DNA of 64,000 nucleotides, taken from contig MTND01000026.1 in NCBI GenBank assembly GCA_002010305.1, positions 78,236-142,235 on the forward strand, written 5' to 3'. Both the position numbers and the translations under genes were made by a program. The notes beneath the pieces are model-generated. The model was not told the origin of the DNA, did not search any database, and saw only the letters and a program-made list of their open reading frames with translations. The DNA is from Archaeoglobi archaeon JdFR-42. GTDB lineage: Archaea; Halobacteriota; Archaeoglobi; Archaeoglobales; JdFR-42. Below, piece after piece: positions 46,634 through 54,790 of the stretch (positions are counted from its first letter, which is position 1; every line of letters starts with the position of its first letter).

Positions 46634-46734
46634 TTCTACACCTCATTTTTTCGGACTCTTTGTCTCACAATATATATATGTATTGGTCATATCATCAAAA
46701 AATTATTAATAAAATGATTGTATTAATTTGGCAT

Positions 46735-47532
46735 ATGAGCAATATTCACGAAGAGATTTTGCACCTAATGACATGCTCTAAAAGACGTCTTGAGATTTTG
46801 AAAAAGCTATTGGAAGGAAGAAAAGTTCAAAAAGAACTCAGTGATGAACTTCAAACAAGACCTGCAAATCTTGCGTTTCAGATCAAACTACTGGAAAACA
46901 GCGGGATTGTCAAAAGGAGTGGGAGGACAATCCAGTTAACTGACACTGGGCTATTGCTTGTCAAATCCCTTGAAAAGTTTGCCATGAATATAGAAACCAT
47001 AATGAAATTTGAGAATCTATGGAAAGGTCATATAACTGAATGCATCCCAGAAGAATTTGTTATTAGACTATATCAGCTCAACAATGGGTCTGTGGTAGAG
47101 GCTTCTCCAGAGGATCTTGAAAAAGCTCATAGGGCATATCTGGATCTGGTTTCTAAATCTAGAAACCTTATGGGAGTATCACCTATTTTCCATCCAGAAT
47201 ATGTTGACGTTTTTCTGGAGGTAGCAAGCAAGGGGGCTTCAATTTCTCTGGTGTTCACAAAACAGGTTGTGAAGAAACTACTGGACGAATACATGGAAGC
47301 GCTGAAAGAGGCTGAAAAATACGATTTAAAACTGTTTGTTTATGGGGATGAAATAAAGGTTGCTTTTACAGTTTCAGAGAGATTTCTATCCTTTGGTCTT
47401 TTTACAAGGGATGGTGAATATGATTTCTTCAGGGATCTGATTTCTATGTCTCCTGAAGCGATACAATGGGGTATGGACCTTTTCCATTATTATGCCAGGC
47501 GATCTGAAGTTTTGGATGTGTCGCTAATTTGA
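46735..47532 (+). CDS. Winged-helix (ArsR-like) transcriptional regulator with a DUF1724-type C-terminal domain
   Basis: The wHTH is 'RRLEILKKLLEGRKVQKELSDELQTRPANLAFQIKLLENSGIVK', followed by a C-terminal domain of about 170 aa. I chose the ATG at 46735. Confidence 0.72.
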   Translation: MSNIHEEILHLMTCSKRRLEILKKLLEGRKVQKELSDELQTRPANLAFQIKLLENSGIVKRSGRTIQLTDTGLLLVKSLEKFAMNIETIMKFENLWKGHITECIPEEFVIRLYQLNNGSVVEASPEDLEKAHRAYLDLVSKSRNLMGVSPIFHPEYVDVFLEVASKGASISLVFTKQVVKKLLDEYMEALKEAEKYDLKLFVYGDEIKVAFTVSERFLSFGLFTRDGEYDFFRDLISMSPEAIQWGMDLFHYYARRSEVLDVSLI

Positions 47533-48450: not shown

Positions 48451-49911
48451 ATGGATCTGATCACCTCTTCTGAAATGAGCGTTGTAGATATCAACTGTGA
48501 ATATTTTGGTCTCTCAAGGTTACAGCTTATGGAGAATGCTGGTCGAGCCCTTGCTTCTGAACTGCTAAAACGATTTCGGAAAGGGAAAGTTATCGTTGTG
48601 GCAGGAAAAGGAAACAATGGGGGCGATGCTTTCGTCATGGCCCGTCATTTGAAGAACTTTGACGTAGAGATATTCATACTTGGAAAAATATCCGACATAA
48701 AAACCAGTGAGGCCAGAAAAAATCTACAGATACTTGTGAATGGCGGATATAAAATTACAGAAATCCGTGATTCAGCTCATATCCCAGAGTTCAGTGGGAA
48801 TATTCTTGTCGATGCCATCCTTGGTACAGGAGTTAAGGGTAGTTTAAAAGACCCAGAAAAAACCGCTGTAGAAAAAATTAATGAAGCAGATATATTTACT
48901 TTATCTGTCGACGTTCCAACTGGTCTTGACCCAGATACCGGAGAGGGAGAACTGGCAGTACAGGCAGACCTTACCGTTACATTCCATAAAGCCAAACCAG
49001 GCCTTATCACTGAAAATGCAAAGAGGTTCGTTGGTGAAATGATTGTTGCCGACATAGGAATACCAAAATCCTTTGAAAAGATGATCGGTGTAGGGGAAGT
49101 AAAAGTATCTTACAAAAGAGATACAGAAGGTCATAAAGGTACCCATGGTAAAATTCTGGTCATAGGAGGGGGGCCTTACACAGGTGCTCCCGTGTTAACT
49201 GGTCTTGCAGCTCTTAGAGGAGGAGTGGATCTGGCTGTTCTTGTCGTACCAGAAAAGATTTCAAAGGTTGTAGCTTCATATTCCCCTGATCTGATTGTTC
49301 GCTCATATCCTGGAGACCATCTGACTCCAGAAGCCCTTCCATATATATACCCATATCTAGAGACCTCTGACGTTGTCGCAATTGGGATGGGACTGGGTCG
49401 AGAGAATGAAACAATAATTGCTGTAAGAGAAATTCTGGAAAAATGTAAAAAAGCTGTCGTAGATGCAGATGCATTAAGGGCTCTTGATTTTCCTCTGGAA
49501 AAAAATATTATTCTTACTCCCCACGAAGGTGAATTTAAGAGGCTTTTCAACCCCATATCCTGGGACACCCTTCAAGAAAAATCCCAAGAGGTTGAAAGAT
49601 GGGCTAAAGAGATAGGAGCTACCATCATTCTGAAAAATCCGATTGATGTAGTTTCCAACGGAAAGATGACAAAAATTAACCTGACTGGAAATGCTGGTAT
49701 GACAGTCGGTGGAACGGGAGACGTGATGGCAGGAGTTGTTTCTGCATTCTTTGCTATGAGTTCAGATACATTTCATGCAGCGTGTGCAGGGGCTTTTATC
49801 ACTGGGCTGGCAGGCGATAAAGCATACGAGAGAATGGGATACAACTTCACGGCAACGGATGTGATCCAGTATATACCTGAGGCCATTAAGGAGAGTCTAT
49901 CCTTCGGTTAA
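48451..49911 (+). CDS. nnr: Bifunctional NAD(P)H-hydrate repair enzyme (epimerase/ADP-dependent dehydratase)
   Basis: 486 aa. It has the YjeF_N motif 'AGKGNNGGDAFV', and its C-terminal carbohydrate-kinase-like domain contains 'GGTGDVMAG'. Confidence 0.9.
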   Translation: MDLITSSEMSVVDINCEYFGLSRLQLMENAGRALASELLKRFRKGKVIVVAGKGNNGGDAFVMARHLKNFDVEIFILGKISDIKTSEARKNLQILVNGGYKITEIRDSAHIPEFSGNILVDAILGTGVKGSLKDPEKTAVEKINEADIFTLSVDVPTGLDPDTGEGELAVQADLTVTFHKAKPGLITENAKRFVGEMIVADIGIPKSFEKMIGVGEVKVSYKRDTEGHKGTHGKILVIGGGPYTGAPVLTGLAALRGGVDLAVLVVPEKISKVVASYSPDLIVRSYPGDHLTPEALPYIYPYLETSDVVAIGMGLGRENETIIAVREILEKCKKAVVDADALRALDFPLEKNIILTPHEGEFKRLFNPISWDTLQEKSQEVERWAKEIGATIILKNPIDVVSNGKMTKINLTGNAGMTVGGTGDVMAGVVSAFFAMSSDTFHAACAGAFITGLAGDKAYERMGYNFTATDVIQYIPEAIKESLSFG

Positions 49912-49912
49912 G

Positions 49913-50944
49913 TCAAATAGAGCCTTCCAGAAGAGCAGATTTTCCATATTCTGTAATTGAATACACCACTCTATCGTCTTTTTTGGTAGCAATAACAAGG
50001 CCCATACTTTCCAGTTCTTTGAGATGCTGGTATATAGCCTGAAAAGAGATTTCCTTTATATGAGACATCCATTTCCATAAGACGTACCCATGAGACGGGT
50101 TTCTATAGAGGTTTCTCAGAATCATAAGCTTGGTTTCTGTAAGAGAGTGTGTGTGAGATTTAAAGCGGCCTGCCACTATACAAACGATTGAATTTCCCTT
50201 TACTTTTCTTGCACCAGCATATGAGGCAGATGCAGAAGCACTGGCTAATATTCCTTCCTTTGCAAGATTCTCCTGGGCTTCAAGGATTTCCTTCTCGTTA
50301 ACATATACTAGCTTAACCATTCCTTTCTCTTGTAGCTGCATTACCTCTTTAAGGAAGTGATTATGTCCAACCAGATAGGATGCGATGCTCGAATCTTTGC
50401 CAGTAGATGATTCTGGCATCACCCCGAAAAACATAGGTGATTTCTTAGCTAGACCCATATTAACCATCTCAATGCTGGCTCTAACACTCATAACTAGGTG
50501 GCTCCCACTCCCTACCGGCAATACAACTGATTCAGGTTCTATCTCTTCAAGAATCTCGTAGGTGGTTGTCTTCTCTCCCACATGCATGTTCAGGTTACGA
50601 AGGAGAGTATCTTCTTCTTCCTTAGCTGTTTTTGCACCCAAAAGTAGAAGAGGTAGATTTGTTTCACTGGTCACAAATTCAATACCAGCTTTAGAACAAT
50701 ATGAAGCAAGAGAGACAATACGATCGTAATCCCAGTTGCACACAATTTTGTTTTTGCCAGTACTCTTAAGATACGATACAAAAAAAGCAGAAAATCTATC
50801 TTCAAAACTTCCTGTAGGATTTATGCGCTCATCCTTGATGAATATACCATTTGAATCCTCATAGAGTGGTGTGCCTCCTTCTCCAAGAGTCAATTGGTAT
50901 TTAAGAGAAGGAAGGAGTTCCCTATATTTCCATATGCCCTTCAC
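49913..50944 (-). CDS. Threonine-synthase-like (fold-type II PLP) domain lacking the catalytic Lys, fused to a PadR-type wHTH; putative transcriptional regulator
   Basis: 343 aa with a GTG start. ThrC-like features are 'WKYRELLP', 'LGEGGTPL', 'NPTGSFEDRF' (E48 where the canonical sequence is SFKDR) and 'PVGSGS'. The C-terminal 'NPSHGYVLWKWM...IYQHLKELESMGLV...YSITEYG' is PadR-like. Confidence 0.8.
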   Translation of the reverse strand: MKGIWKYRELLPSLKYQLTLGEGGTPLYEDSNGIFIKDERINPTGSFEDRFSAFFVSYLKSTGKNKIVCNWDYDRIVSLASYCSKAGIEFVTSETNLPLLLLGAKTAKEEEDTLLRNLNMHVGEKTTTYEILEEIEPESVVLPVGSGSHLVMSVRASIEMVNMGLAKKSPMFFGVMPESSTGKDSSIASYLVGHNHFLKEVMQLQEKGMVKLVYVNEKEILEAQENLAKEGILASASASASYAGARKVKGNSIVCIVAGRFKSHTHSLTETKLMILRNLYRNPSHGYVLWKWMSHIKEISFQAIYQHLKELESMGLVIATKKDDRVVYSITEYGKSALLEGSI

Positions 50945-50958
50945 AATGCAACATATTT

Positions 50959-50975
50959 CTTAAATACTATTAAAG
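50959..50975. promoter_or_regulatory. Imperfect 17-bp palindrome in the 55-bp divergent spacer between the regulator gene and pdxS
   Basis: In 'CTTAAATA-C-TATTAAAG', 7 of 8 arm positions are complementary. It overlaps the positions where TATA boxes are expected for both divergent, probably leaderless genes. Confidence 0.3.
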
Positions 50976-50999
50976 TGTTTACTTGAATAGGTGAAGTAC

Positions 51000-51902
51000 A
51001 TGATAGTGGAACTGGAAAAACTGAGACATGGAACTGAACTGCTCAAACGGGGATTTGCCAAAATGCAAAAAGGTGGAGTGATAATGGATGTAACCACCCC
51101 TGAGCAGGCCCAGATAGCTGAAGATGCTGGAGCAGTGGCTGTGATGGCTTTGCACAGAGTTCCTGCTGATATACGAGCCGTAGGAGGAGTGGCAAGGATG
51201 GCTGATCCAAAGATTATTCAGGCTATAATGGATGCAGTCACGATTCCTGTCATGGCAAAGGTCAGAATAGGTCATTTTGCTGAAGCCCAAATCCTTGAAG
51301 CTCTTGGAGTTGACATGATCGACGAATCTGAAGTCCTTACTCCCGCAGATGAGATGTTTCATATAGACAAGAGACAGTTCAAAGTGCCATTTGTATGTGG
51401 AGCCAGAAATCTTGGAGAGGCTTTGAGAAGGATAGACGAAGGTGCTGCTATGATTAGAACCAAGGGAGAGGCTGGAACAGGAAATGTTGCAGAGGCTGTA
51501 CGCCATATGCGTCTAATCATGGGTGCAATACGAGAGCTGAAAGGAAAGAGTGAAGAAGAGCTCAAAGCATATGCCAGAAAAATCGAAGCACCTTATGAGC
51601 TGGTTGTAGAGACAGCAGATCTCCAGAGATTGCCCGTGGTTAATTTCGCTGCTGGTGGAATAGCCACTCCAGCCGATGCTTCTTTGATGATGCAGCTTGG
51701 TGCTGATGGTGTGTTCGTAGGATCAGGTATATTCAAATCTGAGAACCCAGAAAGGATGGCCAATGCCATTGTGGAAGCTGTAAATTACCATGACGATCCA
51801 TATACTCTCGCTGAAATTTCCAAAGGTCTTGGCGAGCCCATGAAGGGTATAGATATTCGAGAGCTGTCTGAAGAAGAGAAACTTCAGACCCGAGGAATAT
51901 AA
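51000..51902 (+). CDS. pdxS: Pyridoxal 5'-phosphate synthase, synthase subunit
   Basis: 'KGGVIMDV', '[13 protein letters not shown]', '[11 protein letters not shown]' and '[10 protein letters not shown]' are present. I chose the ATG at 51000. Confidence 0.96.
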
Positions 51903-53653: not shown

Positions 53654-54790
53654 GTGTCCAGATGTGAGGAAATAGGTTTATATGCAGGAAAAGGCACCAG
53701 TCATTCCTGGTTATGGTTTGTAGAGTGCCTTGAAAAATTTACTCCTTCAATTCGTTTGCTGGATGAGACCGATATCAGAAAGAAAAATTTAGAGTCCATA
53801 TCCGTCATTATTATCCCAGGGGGGGATACCATTTCCATGGCTCATGCCATGGGGAAAGATGGGTTATCTTATTTACATAATCTGATTAAATCTGGAGCCA
53901 CGTATATGGGATCATGTGCCGGTGCCTATTTACCATTAAAATCTTCCCTTAAACCCCTTTCTCATTTCAACCTTGTCCGGTTGAAAGTAGAAAATCTGGT
54001 TAAAGATCTTCCCATATCAATTGCTCAAGAATACAAATTCTCCGTACCATACGGATGCAGATATGTTATTCATCCAGTGCGAGGAGAAATGGCCCTCGAG
54101 ATGGATGGTTCAATCATCCATGCTCCTTTGTATGGTGGACCTTCATTTTCCTCTATAAATGGAGATGGAGGCATTAAAATCCTAGCCCGCTATTGTAGTT
54201 TTACGTCAGGTACCGAATTTCTGGTAGATAGAGATACAGCCTCATCTATGCTAATTGGTAAGCCAGCTGTGGTGAAATTTTCATGTGGTAGCGGTGATGT
54301 TTACTTACTAGGGCCTCATCTCGAGCACCCCTCCACTAAAGAGGGGAATCAATGGATTCGGGTCATTTTAAGTCCTAAAATTACAACAAACCAAGACGAC
54401 ACATCAGAAATTGGTGTACGAAGAAATTTAACCACTTTGGCCAGTGTCATTTCAGATCTAATGGTAGCAGGAACTTCTTTTTATTCCATGCCTATCTTCT
54501 GGAAGATAGGAATAAAGACATGGGAGCCTGAGAAACTCCATTATTTTATAGATGCCATATGGAAAAGGCTGAAATGGCTTATAAAACTTGGATGGATGGT
54601 AGAAATCAATGAGAGTGAACATCTGGAAAAGATTGCAGGAGAAGTATTGAGCATGGTGAAAGAAATACGATCCATAGTAAAAGATGGAAAGAGTGCAAGA
54701 GAAGAGGCAGAGATCATGTTTGAGAGATGTCGCATCTTGACAAAACTATTCCTTGAAAACTATTTTGCTACCAGGCAGATAGTATGGTGA
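53654..54790 (+). CDS. BPL_N-like (class I glutamine-amidotransferase-fold) domain protein, function unknown
   Basis: 378 aa. 'IGLYAGKGTSHS...IIPGGDT...GATYMGSCAGAYL' resembles the N-terminal domain of eukaryote-type biotin protein ligases. It has a GTG start. Confidence 0.5.
   Translation: MSRCEEIGLYAGKGTSHSWLWFVECLEKFTPSIRLLDETDIRKKNLESISVIIIPGGDTISMAHAMGKDGLSYLHNLIKSGATYMGSCAGAYLPLKSSLKPLSHFNLVRLKVENLVKDLPISIAQEYKFSVPYGCRYVIHPVRGEMALEMDGSIIHAPLYGGPSFSSINGDGGIKILARYCSFTSGTEFLVDRDTASSMLIGKPAVVKFSCGSGDVYLLGPHLEHPSTKEGNQWIRVILSPKITTNQDDTSEIGVRRNLTTLASVISDLMVAGTSFYSMPIFWKIGIKTWEPEKLHYFIDAIWKRLKWLIKLGWMVEINESEHLEKIAGEVLSMVKEIRSIVKDGKSAREEAEIMFERCRILTKLFLENYFATRQIVW

What the first reader, a model, noticed from the sequence alone, without database searches (positions are those of the whole stretch)
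49913..51002. Threonine-synthase-like pseudoenzyme fused to a PadR wHTH, divergent from pdxS-pdxT: candidate archaeal vitamin-B6 regulator analogous to bacterial PdxR
The 343-aa minus-strand ORF starts like a threonine synthase or other fold-type II PLP enzyme ('GIWKYRELLP', 'LTLGEGGTPL', 'NPTGSF.DR', 'PVGSGS', 'ASASASYAG'). However, the Schiff-base lysine of the canonical 'SFKDR' motif is Glu (E48, codon at 50801..50803). The segment normally reading 'C.STGN...' is 'CNWDYDR', and the domain is shorter than a functional ThrC. The last 75 or so residues form a PadR-type winged helix ('NPSHGYVLWKWM...IYQHLKELESMGLV...YSITEYGKSAL'). The gene is transcribed divergently from the PLP synthase genes pdxS-pdxT, with only 55 bp between start codons. 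This mirrors the architectural logic of bacterial PdxR/MocR regulators, where an inactivated or repurposed PLP-fold domain is joined to a DNA-binding domain next to pdxST. Here it is built from different parts: fold type II instead of fold type I, and PadR instead of GntR. I am not aware of a described archaeal regulator of this type. A PLP-, pyridoxal- or threonine-pathway-sensing function is an inference.
Basis: partly seen in the sequence, partly recalled or inferred. Interest (0 to 1): 0.8.

Follow-up and report, generated by a model that had tools for sequence, protein, structure and literature searches.

The report
Dead threonine-synthase turned archaeal B6 regulator
This gene encodes a threonine-synthase-like protein that has lost its catalytic lysine and is fused to a DNA-binding domain. 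It belongs to a widespread archaeal family, mislabelled "threonine synthase", that sits next to vitamin B6 synthesis or uptake genes and is probably the missing archaeal B6 regulator.

Summary
ORF 49913..50944 (-) encodes 343 aa: a shortened threonine-synthase-type (ThrC) PLP fold plus a C-terminal PadR-type winged helix. Glu48 replaces the Schiff-base lysine. The gene is divergent from pdxS-pdxT across 55 bp.

It is not a one-off. It is a trimmed "E-type" branch of a large archaeal family (222 hits in species-representative genomes; NCBIfam NF004170 "threonine synthase").
- None of 94 members has the catalytic lysine, against 39/39 true ThrC. Among 93 wHTH-bearing 50%-identity cluster representatives, 2 have it.
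- All 94 lack the substrate-phosphate arginine, but the long forms keep the cofactor-binding loops.
- pdxST lies divergently next to the gene in three separate branches.
- In 45/80 loci the neighbour is an ECF S-component whose only solved relative is HmpT/PdxU2, a pyridoxamine transporter.
- Conserved inverted repeats lie in these spacers (window 50969..50988).
- A 28-nt operator pattern (22 specified bases) scanned across metagenomes hit 36 loci; 34 lie directly upstream of a family member.

Best reading: a ligand-sensing repressor of B6 synthesis or uptake, an archaeal analogue of bacterial PdxR built from different folds. The ligand is inferred and untested, and for this trimmed branch it is least certain. 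I found no published description.

The parts
49913..50944 (-). Whole gene: 343-aa ThrC-like pseudoenzyme fused to a PadR-type wHTH (stop codon 49913..49915; GTG start 50942..50944)
50159..50944 (-). Shortened fold-type-II (threonine-synthase-type) PLP-fold domain, residues about 1-262; proposed sensor and dimerisation module
   Evidence: Pfam PALP 2.2e-23. Foldseek best hits are ThrC 2D1F/3AEY/6NMX, TM 0.67-0.69. Four deletions relative to long relatives.
50801..50803 (-). Codon GAA for Glu48, in the column of the Schiff-base lysine (SF-K-DR)
   Evidence: Lys in 39/39 ThrC, 0/94 family members, Glu in all 8 short-clade members
50720..50737 (-). N70-W-D-Y-D-R75, replacing the S-T-G-N 'asparagine loop' of ThrC
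   Evidence: G-N kept in 85/86 long family members, replaced by [YLI]-D in all 8 short-clade members
50501..50518 (-). P143-V-G-S-G-S148, the retained glycine-rich loop that in ThrC holds the PLP phosphate
49916..50143 (-). C-terminal PadR-type winged helix-turn-helix plus terminal helix (residues about 268-343)
   Evidence: Pfam PadR 1.7e-8, residues 275-338. Closest solved sequences are TA0346 (3ELK), AphA, PadR 4EJO/6ABT and AspA. AF2 gives H270-281, H286-294, H301-313, E317-322, E325-330, H332-341.
50945..50999 (.). 55-bp divergent spacer carrying both promoters (AT-rich TATA-like stretches) and the candidate operator
50969..50988 (.). Inverted repeat ATTAAAGT-GTTT-ACTTGAAT (7/8 complementary arms): candidate operator. 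It lies between the TATA-like TTAAATA (50960..50966) and the pdxS SD/start region, and overlaps the TATA-like TTTAATA of the regulator gene.
   Evidence: Unique in the 64-kb window even with 2 mismatches, 0.18 expected. It is the invariant block of the spacer in six loci down to 44% protein identity. It is a perfect 8+8 repeat in L002.
51000..51902 (+). pdxS (PLP synthase lyase subunit), proposed regulated target; alternative in-frame GTG start at 50991
   Evidence: NF003215 523.9 bits, TIGR00343 506.5 bits
51903..52508 (+). pdxT (PLP synthase glutaminase subunit), in an operon with pdxS
   Evidence: TIGR03800 199.5 bits

Best explanation
The gene encodes a transcription factor. Its C-terminal PadR-type winged helix binds the 20-bp inverted repeat in the 55-bp spacer, presumably as a dimer held together by the ThrC-like domain.

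The repeat sits between the likely pdxS TATA box and the pdxS start region. It also overlaps the likely TATA box of the regulator gene. Occupancy would therefore block both promoters, repressing pdxST and the regulator itself.

The ThrC-like domain is catalytically dead and serves as the sensor. I propose it binds a B6 vitamer non-covalently (PLP, or PMP/pyridoxamine), so that PLP synthesis is shut off when the cofactor is plentiful. In relatives the same logic would shut off B6 uptake through a PdxU2-like ECF transporter.

Shown here: the architecture, the loss of catalytic residues, the conserved linkage and the conserved repeats. Inferred: DNA binding, the sign of regulation and the ligand.
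For: 1. **Architecture.** PALP plus PadR domains, a confident AF2 model and a ThrC fold.
2. **Not an enzyme.** The Schiff-base Lys is absent in 0/94 family members against 39/39 ThrC. The substrate-phosphate Arg is absent in all 94 against 33/39 ThrC. Among the 149 best cluster representatives, Lys is present in 2/93 with the wHTH and in 52/56 without it.
3. **Cofactor site kept in long members.** G-N loop in 85/86, the Gly-rich loop, and the T of TGxGLK in 84/86.
4. **pdxST linkage.** pdxST is divergent in every short-clade context retrieved: the window, L082-L086, L001 and L002. It is also divergent in two other branches only 36-44% identical, L052/L054/L064 and L035.
5. **Transporter linkage.** 45/80 loci have an adjacent PF07155 ECF S-component. 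Its only PDB sequence relative is 4HZU_S, HmpT/PdxU2 (E 1e-19 and 1e-15). Pyridoxamine is the reported substrate of that transporter (PMC4860826). PdxU and PdxU2 are PF07155/COG4720 (PMC9997740).
6. **One orthologous group, both targets.** L058 is 59-61% identical to L052/L054/L064. All four carry the motif ATATATGA-N7-CCCATATAT; the CATATATG-N10-CATATATG form is exact in L052, L064 and L058. The site faces the S-component in L058 and pdxST in the others.
7. **Operators.** The window repeat is the conserved core of the spacer. The motif ATATATRA-N7-CCYATATAT gives 25 hits in 1.15 Mb, and 24 of them lie at the annotated start of a family gene on its strand (22 upstream at -10 to -51; two just inside starts that are probably called too early). 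The 28-nt pattern ATATATAA-N6-GCCTATATATAGGC, scanned over 241 million metagenome records, hit 36 loci. Of these, 34 have the family gene directly downstream and 34 have the S-component.
8. **Niche.** MocR/PdxR regulators are absent from Archaea, and their regulons are pdxST/pdxK/pdxU (PMC5320631).
Against: - There is no experimental evidence of any kind.
- Only 6 of 80 species-representative loci have pdxST adjacent.
- The S-component family was first predicted to carry hydroxymethylpyrimidine. Its pyridoxamine assignment rests on one MS/MD study.
- An AIR-synthase/ThiL/HypE-like gene in 19+ loci, and a ThiN-HTH (ThiR-like) gene near it in 4 Nitrososphaerota loci, could point to thiamine or HMP instead.
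- This short clade has lost the Asn loop, the Glu of EPAS and about 90 residues, so PLP binding is least secure for the window protein itself.
- No conserved operator was found for the Arg-type branches: Odin, the operon-type Bathyarchaeia, Desulfurococcales and Thermococcus.
- The window repeat overlaps AT-rich promoter elements, so part of its conservation could reflect promoter function.
- Within-clade pdxST linkage is part of a longer syntenic block.
Confidence: 0.6

Rival explanations
1. The protein is a transcription factor, but the dead ThrC domain is only a dimerisation scaffold. No small molecule is sensed, or regulation comes through another signal.
For: The short clade has lost the Asn loop and other cofactor contacts and about 90 residues. 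The residue at the Lys position is very variable across the family: R, I, L, M, Y, E, S.
Against: Long members keep the Gly-rich phosphate loop, the G-N loop, the T of TGxGLK and the NPTGSF-x-DR frame under strong conservation. That is hard to explain for a mere scaffold. Glu48 and D-x-D-R are invariant within the short clade. Linkage to cofactor synthesis and uptake genes suggests feedback.
Confidence: 0.12
2. The protein is a regulator that senses an amino-acid-type ligand inherited from ThrC chemistry, such as threonine, serine or O-phosphohomoserine. Sensing would occur alone or as an aldimine with non-covalently held PLP, as GABA-PLP does in GabR. This would couple PLP supply to amino-acid status.
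For: The ThrC ancestry is clear. GabR-type MocR regulators work through an external aldimine (PMC5320631).
Against: The substrate-phosphate Arg and the N-S pair are lost in all 94 members. No thr, hom or ser genes recur in the neighbourhoods. The recurring partners are pdxST, an HmpT/PdxU2-like transporter and ECF modules.
Confidence: 0.12
3. The protein regulates thiamine-pyrimidine (HMP) salvage rather than B6. The ligand would be HMP or HMP-P, which resembles pyridoxamine.
For: The S-component family was originally named HmpT. A ThiL/HypE-like AIR-synthase-family gene co-occurs in 19+ loci. A ThiN-HTH (ThiR-like) gene lies nearby in 4 Nitrososphaerota loci.
Against: pdxST is the divergent partner in three independent branches. 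The same operator type precedes pdxST and the S-component within one orthologous group. The solved relative of the S-component carried pyridoxamine (PMC4860826). Archaea already have ThiR for thiamine (PMC10746257). No thiC/thi4/thiD genes recur.
Confidence: 0.1
4. It is still an enzyme (threonine synthase or another beta/gamma-replacement activity) that also binds DNA. It would then be a bifunctional protein like RbkR.
For: Databases name the family threonine synthase. NF004170 scores 702 bits for a Thermococcus member, and TIGR00260 is passed by Bathyarchaeia, Thor and Odin members.
Against: There is no Schiff-base Lys in 0/94 members, or in 2/93 representatives. There is no substrate Arg. 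The window protein scores 164.6 against a cut-off of 421, and 43.6 against 167.1. The small domain is trimmed.
Confidence: 0.03
5. It is a decaying gene remnant with no function.
For: It is shorter than its relatives and has lost catalytic residues.
Against: Intact ORFs with the same deletions occur in at least 8 sequences at 44-60% identity. The AF2 model has pLDDT 93. Many columns are invariant. The upstream repeat is conserved.
Confidence: 0.03

Closest known systems
Bacterial PdxR (MocR subfamily of GntR regulators)
   Same: A PLP-enzyme fold is joined to a winged helix. The gene is divergent from pdxST and the operator lies in the shared spacer. The regulon content is B6 synthesis (pdxST) and/or uptake (pdxU) (PMC5320631).
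   Different: The fold is type II (ThrC) instead of type I (aminotransferase). The wHTH is PadR-type and C-terminal instead of GntR-type and N-terminal. The Schiff-base lysine is lost here, whereas MocR regulators keep it and bind PLP covalently. PdxR activates pdxST in its apo form; here the site position suggests repression. MocR regulators are absent from Archaea.
Archaeal vitamin regulators derived from pathway enzymes: ThiR (ThiN domain + HTH) and RbkR (riboflavin kinase + wHTH)
   Same: An archaeal enzyme-type domain fused to a wHTH controls synthesis genes in some genomes and an ECF or other uptake transporter in others. Operators are 16-20-bp palindromes and the regulators autoregulate (PMC5397151; PMC10746257).
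   Different: The vitamin and the enzyme fold are different. RbkR is still an active kinase, whereas this family lacks the catalytic lysine. ThrC is not an enzyme of the B6 pathway but a B6-dependent enzyme, so the domain was recruited for cofactor binding rather than substrate binding.
Threonine synthase (ThrC; TIGR00260; structures 2D1F, 1V7C, 6NMX)
   Same: The fold and many framework motifs are shared: GIW..LLP, LGEGGTPL, NPTGSF-x-DR, the Gly-rich loop and EGxKT. The long relatives also share the N-terminal zinc ribbon of archaeal ThrC.
   Different: There is no Schiff-base Lys, no substrate-phosphate Arg and no Asn loop. About 90 residues are missing. A DNA-binding domain has been added. 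The curated cut-offs are not reached.
NCBIfam NF004170 / PRK05638 'threonine synthase' (the 442-position model that includes the C-terminal wHTH)
   Same: The two-domain architecture is the same. The window protein aligns to profile positions 195-436, wHTH included. Thermococcus and Desulfurococcales relatives pass the cut-off.
   Different: The window protein scores 164.6 bits against a cut-off of 421. It lacks the zinc ribbon and four internal segments, and it has Glu instead of Arg at the Lys column. The family name itself appears wrong, because its members lack the catalytic Lys.
PadR-family regulators (for example TA0346/3ELK, AphA, B. subtilis PadR)
   Same: The wHTH sequence type is shared (Pfam 34.8 bits against a cut-off of 27). 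A short helix follows the wing, and the candidate site is palindromic.
   Different: The wHTH is C-terminal and follows a 260-aa enzyme-derived domain. In PadR proteins it is N-terminal and is followed by a helical dimerisation domain.

Membership tests
Threonine synthase (EC 4.2.3.1; TIGR00260 / NF004170 equivalogs) | Schiff-base lysine in the SFKDR motif | tested here: not met
   Glu48 occupies the column. Lys is present in 39/39 ThrC and 0/94 family members.
Threonine synthase (EC 4.2.3.1; TIGR00260 / NF004170 equivalogs) | Residues that hold the substrate phosphate (N-S ... NPxR-EGQKT) and the S-T-G-N loop | tested here: not met
   Arg is present in 33/39 ThrC and 0/94 family members. G-N is replaced by Y-D in the window protein. 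The roles of these residues are from my recollection of the T. thermophilus ThrC complexes and were not re-verified here.
Threonine synthase (EC 4.2.3.1; TIGR00260 / NF004170 equivalogs) | Score at or above the curated model cut-off | tested here: not met
   NF004170 164.6 bits against 421; TIGR00260 43.6 bits against 167.1
Threonine synthase (EC 4.2.3.1; TIGR00260 / NF004170 equivalogs) | Fold-type-II PLP-enzyme fold most similar to ThrC | tested here: met
   Pfam PALP 2.2e-23. Foldseek top 13 hits are all bacterial-type ThrC, E about 1e-17, TM 0.67-0.69.
Threonine synthase (EC 4.2.3.1; TIGR00260 / NF004170 equivalogs) | Catalytic activity (O-phosphohomoserine to threonine) | not testable with these tools
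   Needs an enzyme assay or thrC complementation.
PadR-family transcription factors (PF03551) | PadR-type wHTH above the Pfam gathering score | tested here: met
   34.8 bits against 27, residues 275-338. The nearest PDB sequences are PadR-type: 3ELK, 1YG2, 4EJO, 6ABT.
PadR-family transcription factors (PF03551) | N-terminal wHTH followed by a C-terminal helical dimerisation domain | tested here: not met
   The wHTH is C-terminal. Only one short helix (332-341) follows it.
PadR-family transcription factors (PF03551) | Binds a palindromic operator as a dimer | tested here: inconclusive
   A conserved 8-N4-8 inverted repeat lies at 50969..50988. Binding was not tested.
MocR/PdxR PLP-dependent regulators | N-terminal GntR-type wHTH plus a fold-type-I aminotransferase-like domain with the PLP lysine | tested here: not met
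   The domains are PALP (fold type II) plus a C-terminal PadR wHTH, with no lysine.
MocR/PdxR PLP-dependent regulators | Divergent from pdxST; regulon made of B6 synthesis and uptake genes | tested here: met
   Met by gene neighbourhood only. pdxST is divergent in 3 branches. A PdxU2-like S-component is adjacent in 45/80 loci.
Archaeal ThrC-like + wHTH family (undescribed; overlaps NF004170) | ThrC-like domain followed by a wHTH carrying the [AS][VI]YQHLxEL[ET] recognition-helix motif | tested here: met
   The window has AIYQHLKELE. 222 relatives were found with this motif, and 80 were analysed.
Archaeal ThrC-like + wHTH family (undescribed; overlaps NF004170) | Schiff-base lysine replaced, substrate Arg lost | tested here: met
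Archaeal ThrC-like + wHTH family (undescribed; overlaps NF004170) | Retention of the cofactor-binding loops (G-N loop, TGxGLK) and the N-terminal zinc ribbon | tested here: not met
   The short E-type clade lacks the zinc ribbon, the G-N loop and the GLK tail. It keeps only the Gly-rich loop.
Archaeal ThrC-like + wHTH family (undescribed; overlaps NF004170) | Binding of a B6 vitamer | not testable with these tools
   Needs ITC, UV-vis or a structure with ligand.

The most novel reading that the evidence does not exclude
The whole ThrC-like + wHTH family is the long-missing vitamin B6 regulator of Archaea. It occurs in Asgard lineages, Bathyarchaeia, Nitrososphaerota, Desulfurococcales, Thermococcales, Methanomethylicia and Archaeoglobi relatives. 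It would be a fold-type-II PLP pseudoenzyme that reads the free cofactor pool non-covalently and represses either de novo synthesis (pdxST) or uptake (a PdxU2-like ECF transporter). The AIR-synthase/HypE-like gene that travels with it would be a new kind of B6 salvage enzyme, for example the alternative B6 kinase that PMC9997740 says remains to be found.
Probability: 0.45. Interest if true: 0.85.

Novelty: new variant of a known kind. Interest (0 to 1): 0.72.

Why it matters
- **An open gap.** No B6 regulator is known in Archaea. MocR/PdxR regulators are absent there (PMC5320631). A 2023 list of Pyrococcus vitamin regulons names B1, B2 and B12 only (PMC10746257).
- **What this family would add.** It would fill that gap and give a third example of archaeal enzyme-derived vitamin regulators, after ThiR and RbkR. 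It would also show convergent evolution with bacterial PdxR from entirely different folds.
- **Annotation.** Hundreds of archaeal genes are named "threonine synthase" by curated equivalog models although they lack the catalytic lysine. This distorts metabolic reconstructions of threonine prototrophy in uncultured archaea, including Asgard lineages.
- **Other functions.** The linkage also annotates an archaeal B6 uptake S-component and flags an unknown AIR-synthase-like enzyme as a B6 salvage candidate.
- **Testability.** Members exist in genetically tractable Thermococcales, so the hypothesis can be tested directly.

Tried and rejected
- **Literature.** Seven full-text searches combined threonine synthase, ThrC or fold type II with PadR, wHTH, HTH, pseudoenzyme, archaea, or pdxS regulators. 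None found a description. Older non-CC papers are not searchable, for example early surveys of archaeal HTH fusions, so I cannot exclude a passing mention.
- **PDB.** No solved structure of the fusion exists; only true ThrC structures match.
- **Window.** A search for the ECF S-component or the AIR-synthase-like partner found none, only a generic ABC ATPase at about 18.6-19.3 kb.
- **L088.** I tested whether the gene upstream of P0016 in L088 is pdxS. It is not.
- **Arg-type branches.** I looked for a shared operator in Odin, the operon-type Bathyarchaeia, Desulfurococcales, Thermococcus and Methanomethylicia. None was evident by eye or by the inverted-repeat scan.
- **Metagenome operator scan.** I hoped it would reveal extra regulon members such as stand-alone pdxS. 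It returned only family-gene/S-component spacers plus one gene-less contig, L125, probably a chance match.
- **Promoter scanner.** The sigma-70 promoter scanner was not used because archaeal promoters are not covered. TATA and start-site positions are my own reading of the sequence.
- **Organism.** The exact organism of the window was not identified. The nearest named relatives of the gene are Ca. Mnemosynella (Archaeoglobi) at 44-45% identity.
Full report
**1. What is in the window**

The domain evidence is:
- Pfam finds a PLP-enzyme domain (PALP, 2.2e-23) and a PadR wHTH at residues 275-338 (1.7e-8, above the gathering score).
- NCBIfam's best match is NF004170/PRK05638 "threonine synthase". 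This 442-position model itself runs through the C-terminal wHTH. The score is only 164.6 bits against a cut-off of 421, and TIGR00260 thrC gives 43.6 against 167.1.

The E48 codon is at 50803..50801. pdxS and pdxT follow divergently. With the pdxS ATG at 51000, preceded by GGTGA, the spacer is 55 bp (50945..50999); an independent gene call agrees. An NAD(P)HX epimerase/dehydratase gene converges on the 3' end (48451..49911).

An AlphaFold2 model is confident (pLDDT 93.1, pTM 0.84). Its best structural matches are bacterial-type threonine synthases (2D1F, 3AEY, 6NMX; E about 1e-17, TM about 0.68 over a query that includes the extra wHTH). The wHTH alone is closest to PadR-type structures (TA0346 3ELK, AphA, 4EJO, 6ABT, AspA).

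**2. It belongs to a large family, and the whole family has lost the lysine**

A protein search found two groups:
- a small clade of short proteins (332-343 aa, 44-100% identity);
- many long PALP+PadR proteins (425-500 aa) from Odinarchaeota, Nitrososphaerales and others.

I then scanned one genome per species with a pattern from the recognition helix, [AS][VI]YQHLxEL[ET]. It gave 222 relatives, and 80 loci were kept. They come from Bathyarchaeia, Odin-, Thor-, Hel-, Hermod- and Baldr-archaeota, Desulfurococcales, Thermococcus, Nitrososphaerota, Methanomethylicia, Culexmicrobium and Ca. Mnemosynella.

At the Schiff-base column no member has Lys. The counts are R 32, I 19, L 8, M 4, Y 4, E 3, S 3, A, V and T. 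A joint alignment of 39 true ThrC against 86 long and 8 short members gives:

| Feature | True ThrC | Long members | Short clade |
|---|---|---|---|
| Schiff-base Lys | 39/39 | 0/86 | 0/8 (all Glu) |
| Arg of NPxR-EGQKT | 33/39 | 0/86 | 0/8 |
| G-N of the S-T-G-N loop | G 39/39, N 36/39 | 85/86 | replaced by D-[YLI]-D-R |
| Gly-rich phosphate loop | kept | kept | kept |
| T of TGxGLK | 39/39 | 84/86 | Thr in 4/8; the GLK tail is lost |

By my recollection of the ThrC-analogue complexes, that Arg holds the substrate phosphate. The short clade also lacks the zinc ribbon and four internal segments.

An exhaustive profile search of 1.84 billion cluster representatives gave the same association among the 149 best hits:
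- 93 carry the wHTH, and only 2 of them have Lys (P0152 and P0158, which still lack the substrate Arg);
- 56 lack the wHTH, and 52 of them have Lys.

So the wHTH fusion and loss of catalysis go together. Yet curated models name these proteins threonine synthase. A Thermococcus member scores 702 bits on NF004170 and a Desulfurococcales member 437, both above the cut-off. Bathyarchaeia, Thor and Odin members pass TIGR00260.

**3. Genomic context points to vitamin B6**

*pdxST.* In the short clade every context I could retrieve has pdxT-pdxS divergent from the gene across 52-58 bp:
- the window;
- P0004 on three contigs, P0002 and P0003 (59-60% identity; P0003's 3-kb contig is cut, and I did not test its partial upstream ORF for pdxS);
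- two Mnemosynella species (44-45% identity).

That block is syntenic over several genes, so on its own it is weak evidence. But pdxST is also the divergent neighbour of long-form members in two other branches that are only 36-44% identical to the window protein and to each other. These are three Bathyarchaeota loci (L052, L054, L064) and a Methanobacteriota MAG (L035).

*ECF S-component.* The commonest neighbour by far, in 45 of 80 loci, is a protein of about 200 aa. It lies downstream on the same strand (20 loci), divergent upstream (14), or nearby. It is an ECF S-component of Pfam PF07155 (1e-32). Sometimes it comes with a fused EcfA-A' ATPase and a T-like protein (12 loci). Independent gene calls with precomputed Pfam hits agree.

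Two representatives of the S-component have a single relative among all PDB sequences: 4HZU chain S, Lactobacillus brevis HmpT (E 1e-19 and 1e-15). They show no match to RibU, FolT, ThiT or BioY structures. Three papers bear on its identity:
- HmpT was shown to carry pyridoxamine (PMC4860826).
- The B6 S-components PdxU and PdxU2/HmpT are exactly COG4720/PF07155 (PMC9997740).
- RibU is COG3601 (PMC5397151).

The bacterial PdxR regulon consists of pdxST and/or pdxK and pdxU (PMC5320631). The neighbourhoods of this archaeal family reproduce that content.

**4. Candidate operators**

*In the window.* The spacer contains ATTAAAGT-GTTT-ACTTGAAT at 50969..50988, with 7/8 complementary arms. It is unique in the window even at two mismatches, with 0.18 expected. 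In an alignment of six short-clade spacers this repeat is the invariant core (TATT.AAG....A.ACTTTAATA.T) while the rest diverges. In L002 the repeat is perfect.

*My reading of the promoters (inference).* For pdxS, a TATA-like TTAAATA at 50960..50966 would put the start near the SD at about 50989, so the repeat fills the TATA-to-start interval. For the regulator gene, TTTAATA (complement of 50968..50974) lies about 27 nt before the GTG. That fits a leaderless transcript and overlaps one arm of the repeat. A bound dimer would thus hinder both promoters. This is the usual way archaeal repressors act (established knowledge; not tested here).

*In long-form branches.* Related elements appear:
- CATATATG-N10-CATATATG before the pdxST-linked L052 and L064, with a 1-mismatch variant in L054, and the same element before the S-component-linked L058, which is 59-61% identical to them;
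- ATATATAA-N6-GCCTATATATAGGC in Thor and Bathyarchaeia;
- AATATATAAG-N5-ACCTATATAT in Nitrososphaerota;
- a 13+13 perfect palindrome in L035.

The consensus ATATATRA-N7-CCYATATAT occurs 25 times (at most 1 mismatch) in 1.15 Mb of fetched loci. Of these, 24 lie at the annotated start of a family gene on its strand: 22 upstream at -10 to -51, and two just inside starts that are probably called too early.

As an unbiased test I scanned 241 million metagenome records for the 28-nt Thor/Bathyarchaeia pattern. It hit 36 loci. In 34 the family gene lies immediately downstream, and in 34 the S-component lies on the other side. The element is therefore tied to this gene pair, as expected for an autoregulated factor controlling its divergent neighbour.

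**5. Mechanism proposed**

The protein is a dimeric transcription factor in which the dead ThrC domain senses a B6 vitamer non-covalently.
- For the long forms the preserved cofactor loops argue for PLP or PMP.
- For the short Glu-type clade the ligand may differ, because the site is more altered. The invariant Glu48 and D-x-D-R might suit an amine such as pyridoxamine(-P); this is speculation.
- The liganded form would occupy the operator and repress pdxST, or the uptake system in relatives, together with its own gene.

Shown: architecture, loss of catalytic residues, conserved linkage and conserved repeats. Inferred: DNA binding, the sign of regulation and the ligand. My confidence is about 0.85 that it is a DNA-binding regulator of its neighbours, about 0.7 that the regulon is B6-related, and about 0.55-0.6 that a B6 vitamer is the ligand.

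**6. Rivals**

- *Scaffold only, no ligand.* This is weakened by the strong conservation of the cofactor loops.
- *Amino-acid sensing.* The substrate-binding residues are gone and no amino-acid genes are linked.
- *HMP or thiamine.* This is suggested by the original HmpT name, by an AIR-synthase/ThiL/HypE-like gene in 19+ loci and by a ThiN-HTH gene nearby in four Nitrososphaerota loci. The pdxST linkage and the existence of ThiR argue against it.
- *Active bifunctional enzyme.* There is no lysine.
- *Gene decay.* The clade is conserved, intact and predicted to fold well.

**7. Comparison with known systems, and novelty**

Functionally it resembles bacterial PdxR, but it fails every structural criterion of the MocR family. 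MocR regulators are absent from Archaea. Conceptually it joins ThiR and RbkR, the archaeal enzyme-derived vitamin regulators. It is not a threonine synthase and only partly a PadR-family protein.

Seven literature searches found no description. I rate it a new variant of a known kind: a new regulator family built from new parts on a known logic. The window gene is a reduced member of that family.

Noticed in passing
L008, L012, L013, L021, L027, L028, L031, L032, L044, L065, L072 (gene +2); L089 5502..6515; also divergent from the regulator in L075, L078, L079: An AIR-synthase-family protein of about 335 aa travels with the regulator and the S-component in 19+ loci. It resembles HypE (2e-35) and ThiL (3e-25), both below cut-off; the closest PDB sequence is HypE 2Z1E. 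Its function is unknown. It is a candidate B6 salvage enzyme, since PMC9997740 notes that alternative B6 kinases remain to be found. It could instead be a thiamine-related kinase.
   Followed up: partly
NCBIfam NF004170 (PRK05638) and TIGR00260, tested with family members from L043, L015, L052, L024, L074, L004: Curated 'equivalog' models name these lysine-less wHTH fusions threonine synthase. The Thermococcus member scores 702 bits against a cut-off of 421, and several others pass the thrC cut-off. This is probably a systematic misannotation that affects threonine-pathway reconstructions in archaeal MAGs.
   Followed up: yes
P0152 (475 aa) and P0158 (470 aa), from the representative search: These are the only two wHTH-bearing family representatives of 93 that keep Lys at the Schiff-base position (NPTNSFKDR, NPTSSFKDR). 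Both still lack the substrate-phosphate Arg. They are possible ancestral-state or revertant members that could bind PLP covalently, like MocR regulators.
   Followed up: partly
L048 11704..11727: A second copy of the operator-like motif (ATATTTAATTTGTCGCCTATATATAGGC) lies about 1.2 kb downstream of the regulator gene. It sits between a radical-SAM-like gene and a GNAT-like acetyltransferase gene. Bacterial PdxR regulons are reported to include RimI/RimL-type acetyltransferases (PMC5320631).
   Followed up: no
L009, L029, L063, L075 (cluster c22, about 310 aa): A ThiN-domain protein with an N-terminal HTH (ThiR-like; PF10120 2e-41) lies a few genes from the AIR-synthase-like gene in Nitrososphaerota loci. 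It hints at a B1/B6 salvage neighbourhood.
   Followed up: partly
L043, L047, L049, L050 (Thermococcus), gene +2: In Thermococcus the regulator gene is followed by a small membrane protein and by ribose-5-phosphate isomerase A (PF06026 2.6e-66). Ribose 5-phosphate is a PdxS substrate, so this may be a further B6 link or a coincidence.
   Followed up: no
window 46660..47532 (+): This ORF is a FilR1-type regulator: ArsR-like HTH plus the FilR1 middle domain (3.7e-34). It lies two genes from the finding and suggests a methanogen- or alkanotroph-related or Archaeoglobi-related host. Its start codon is uncertain, because the listed ORF starts at TTG with a long N-terminal extension.
   Followed up: no
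window 53654..54790 (+); same position in L082/L083: A conserved 378-aa protein with a biotin-protein-ligase N-terminal-like (BPL_N) domain and a weak SNO/glutamine-amidotransferase hit is kept in synteny. The conserved order is pdxT, an FtsJ methyltransferase, a CxxCxxCC protein, then this gene. Its function is unknown.
   Followed up: no
L024, L034, L037, L045, L051, L056, L060, L066 (cluster c6, about 431 aa): In Thorarchaeota a conserved 431-aa protein with no Pfam match follows the S-component on the strand opposite the regulator. It may be co-regulated.
   Followed up: no
P0056, P0060, P0077, P0080 and others (about 540-580 aa): Other ThrC-like proteins are fused to a response-regulator receiver domain (PF00072). 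This is a second kind of ThrC-domain fusion in signalling proteins. I did not check their lysine.
   Followed up: no
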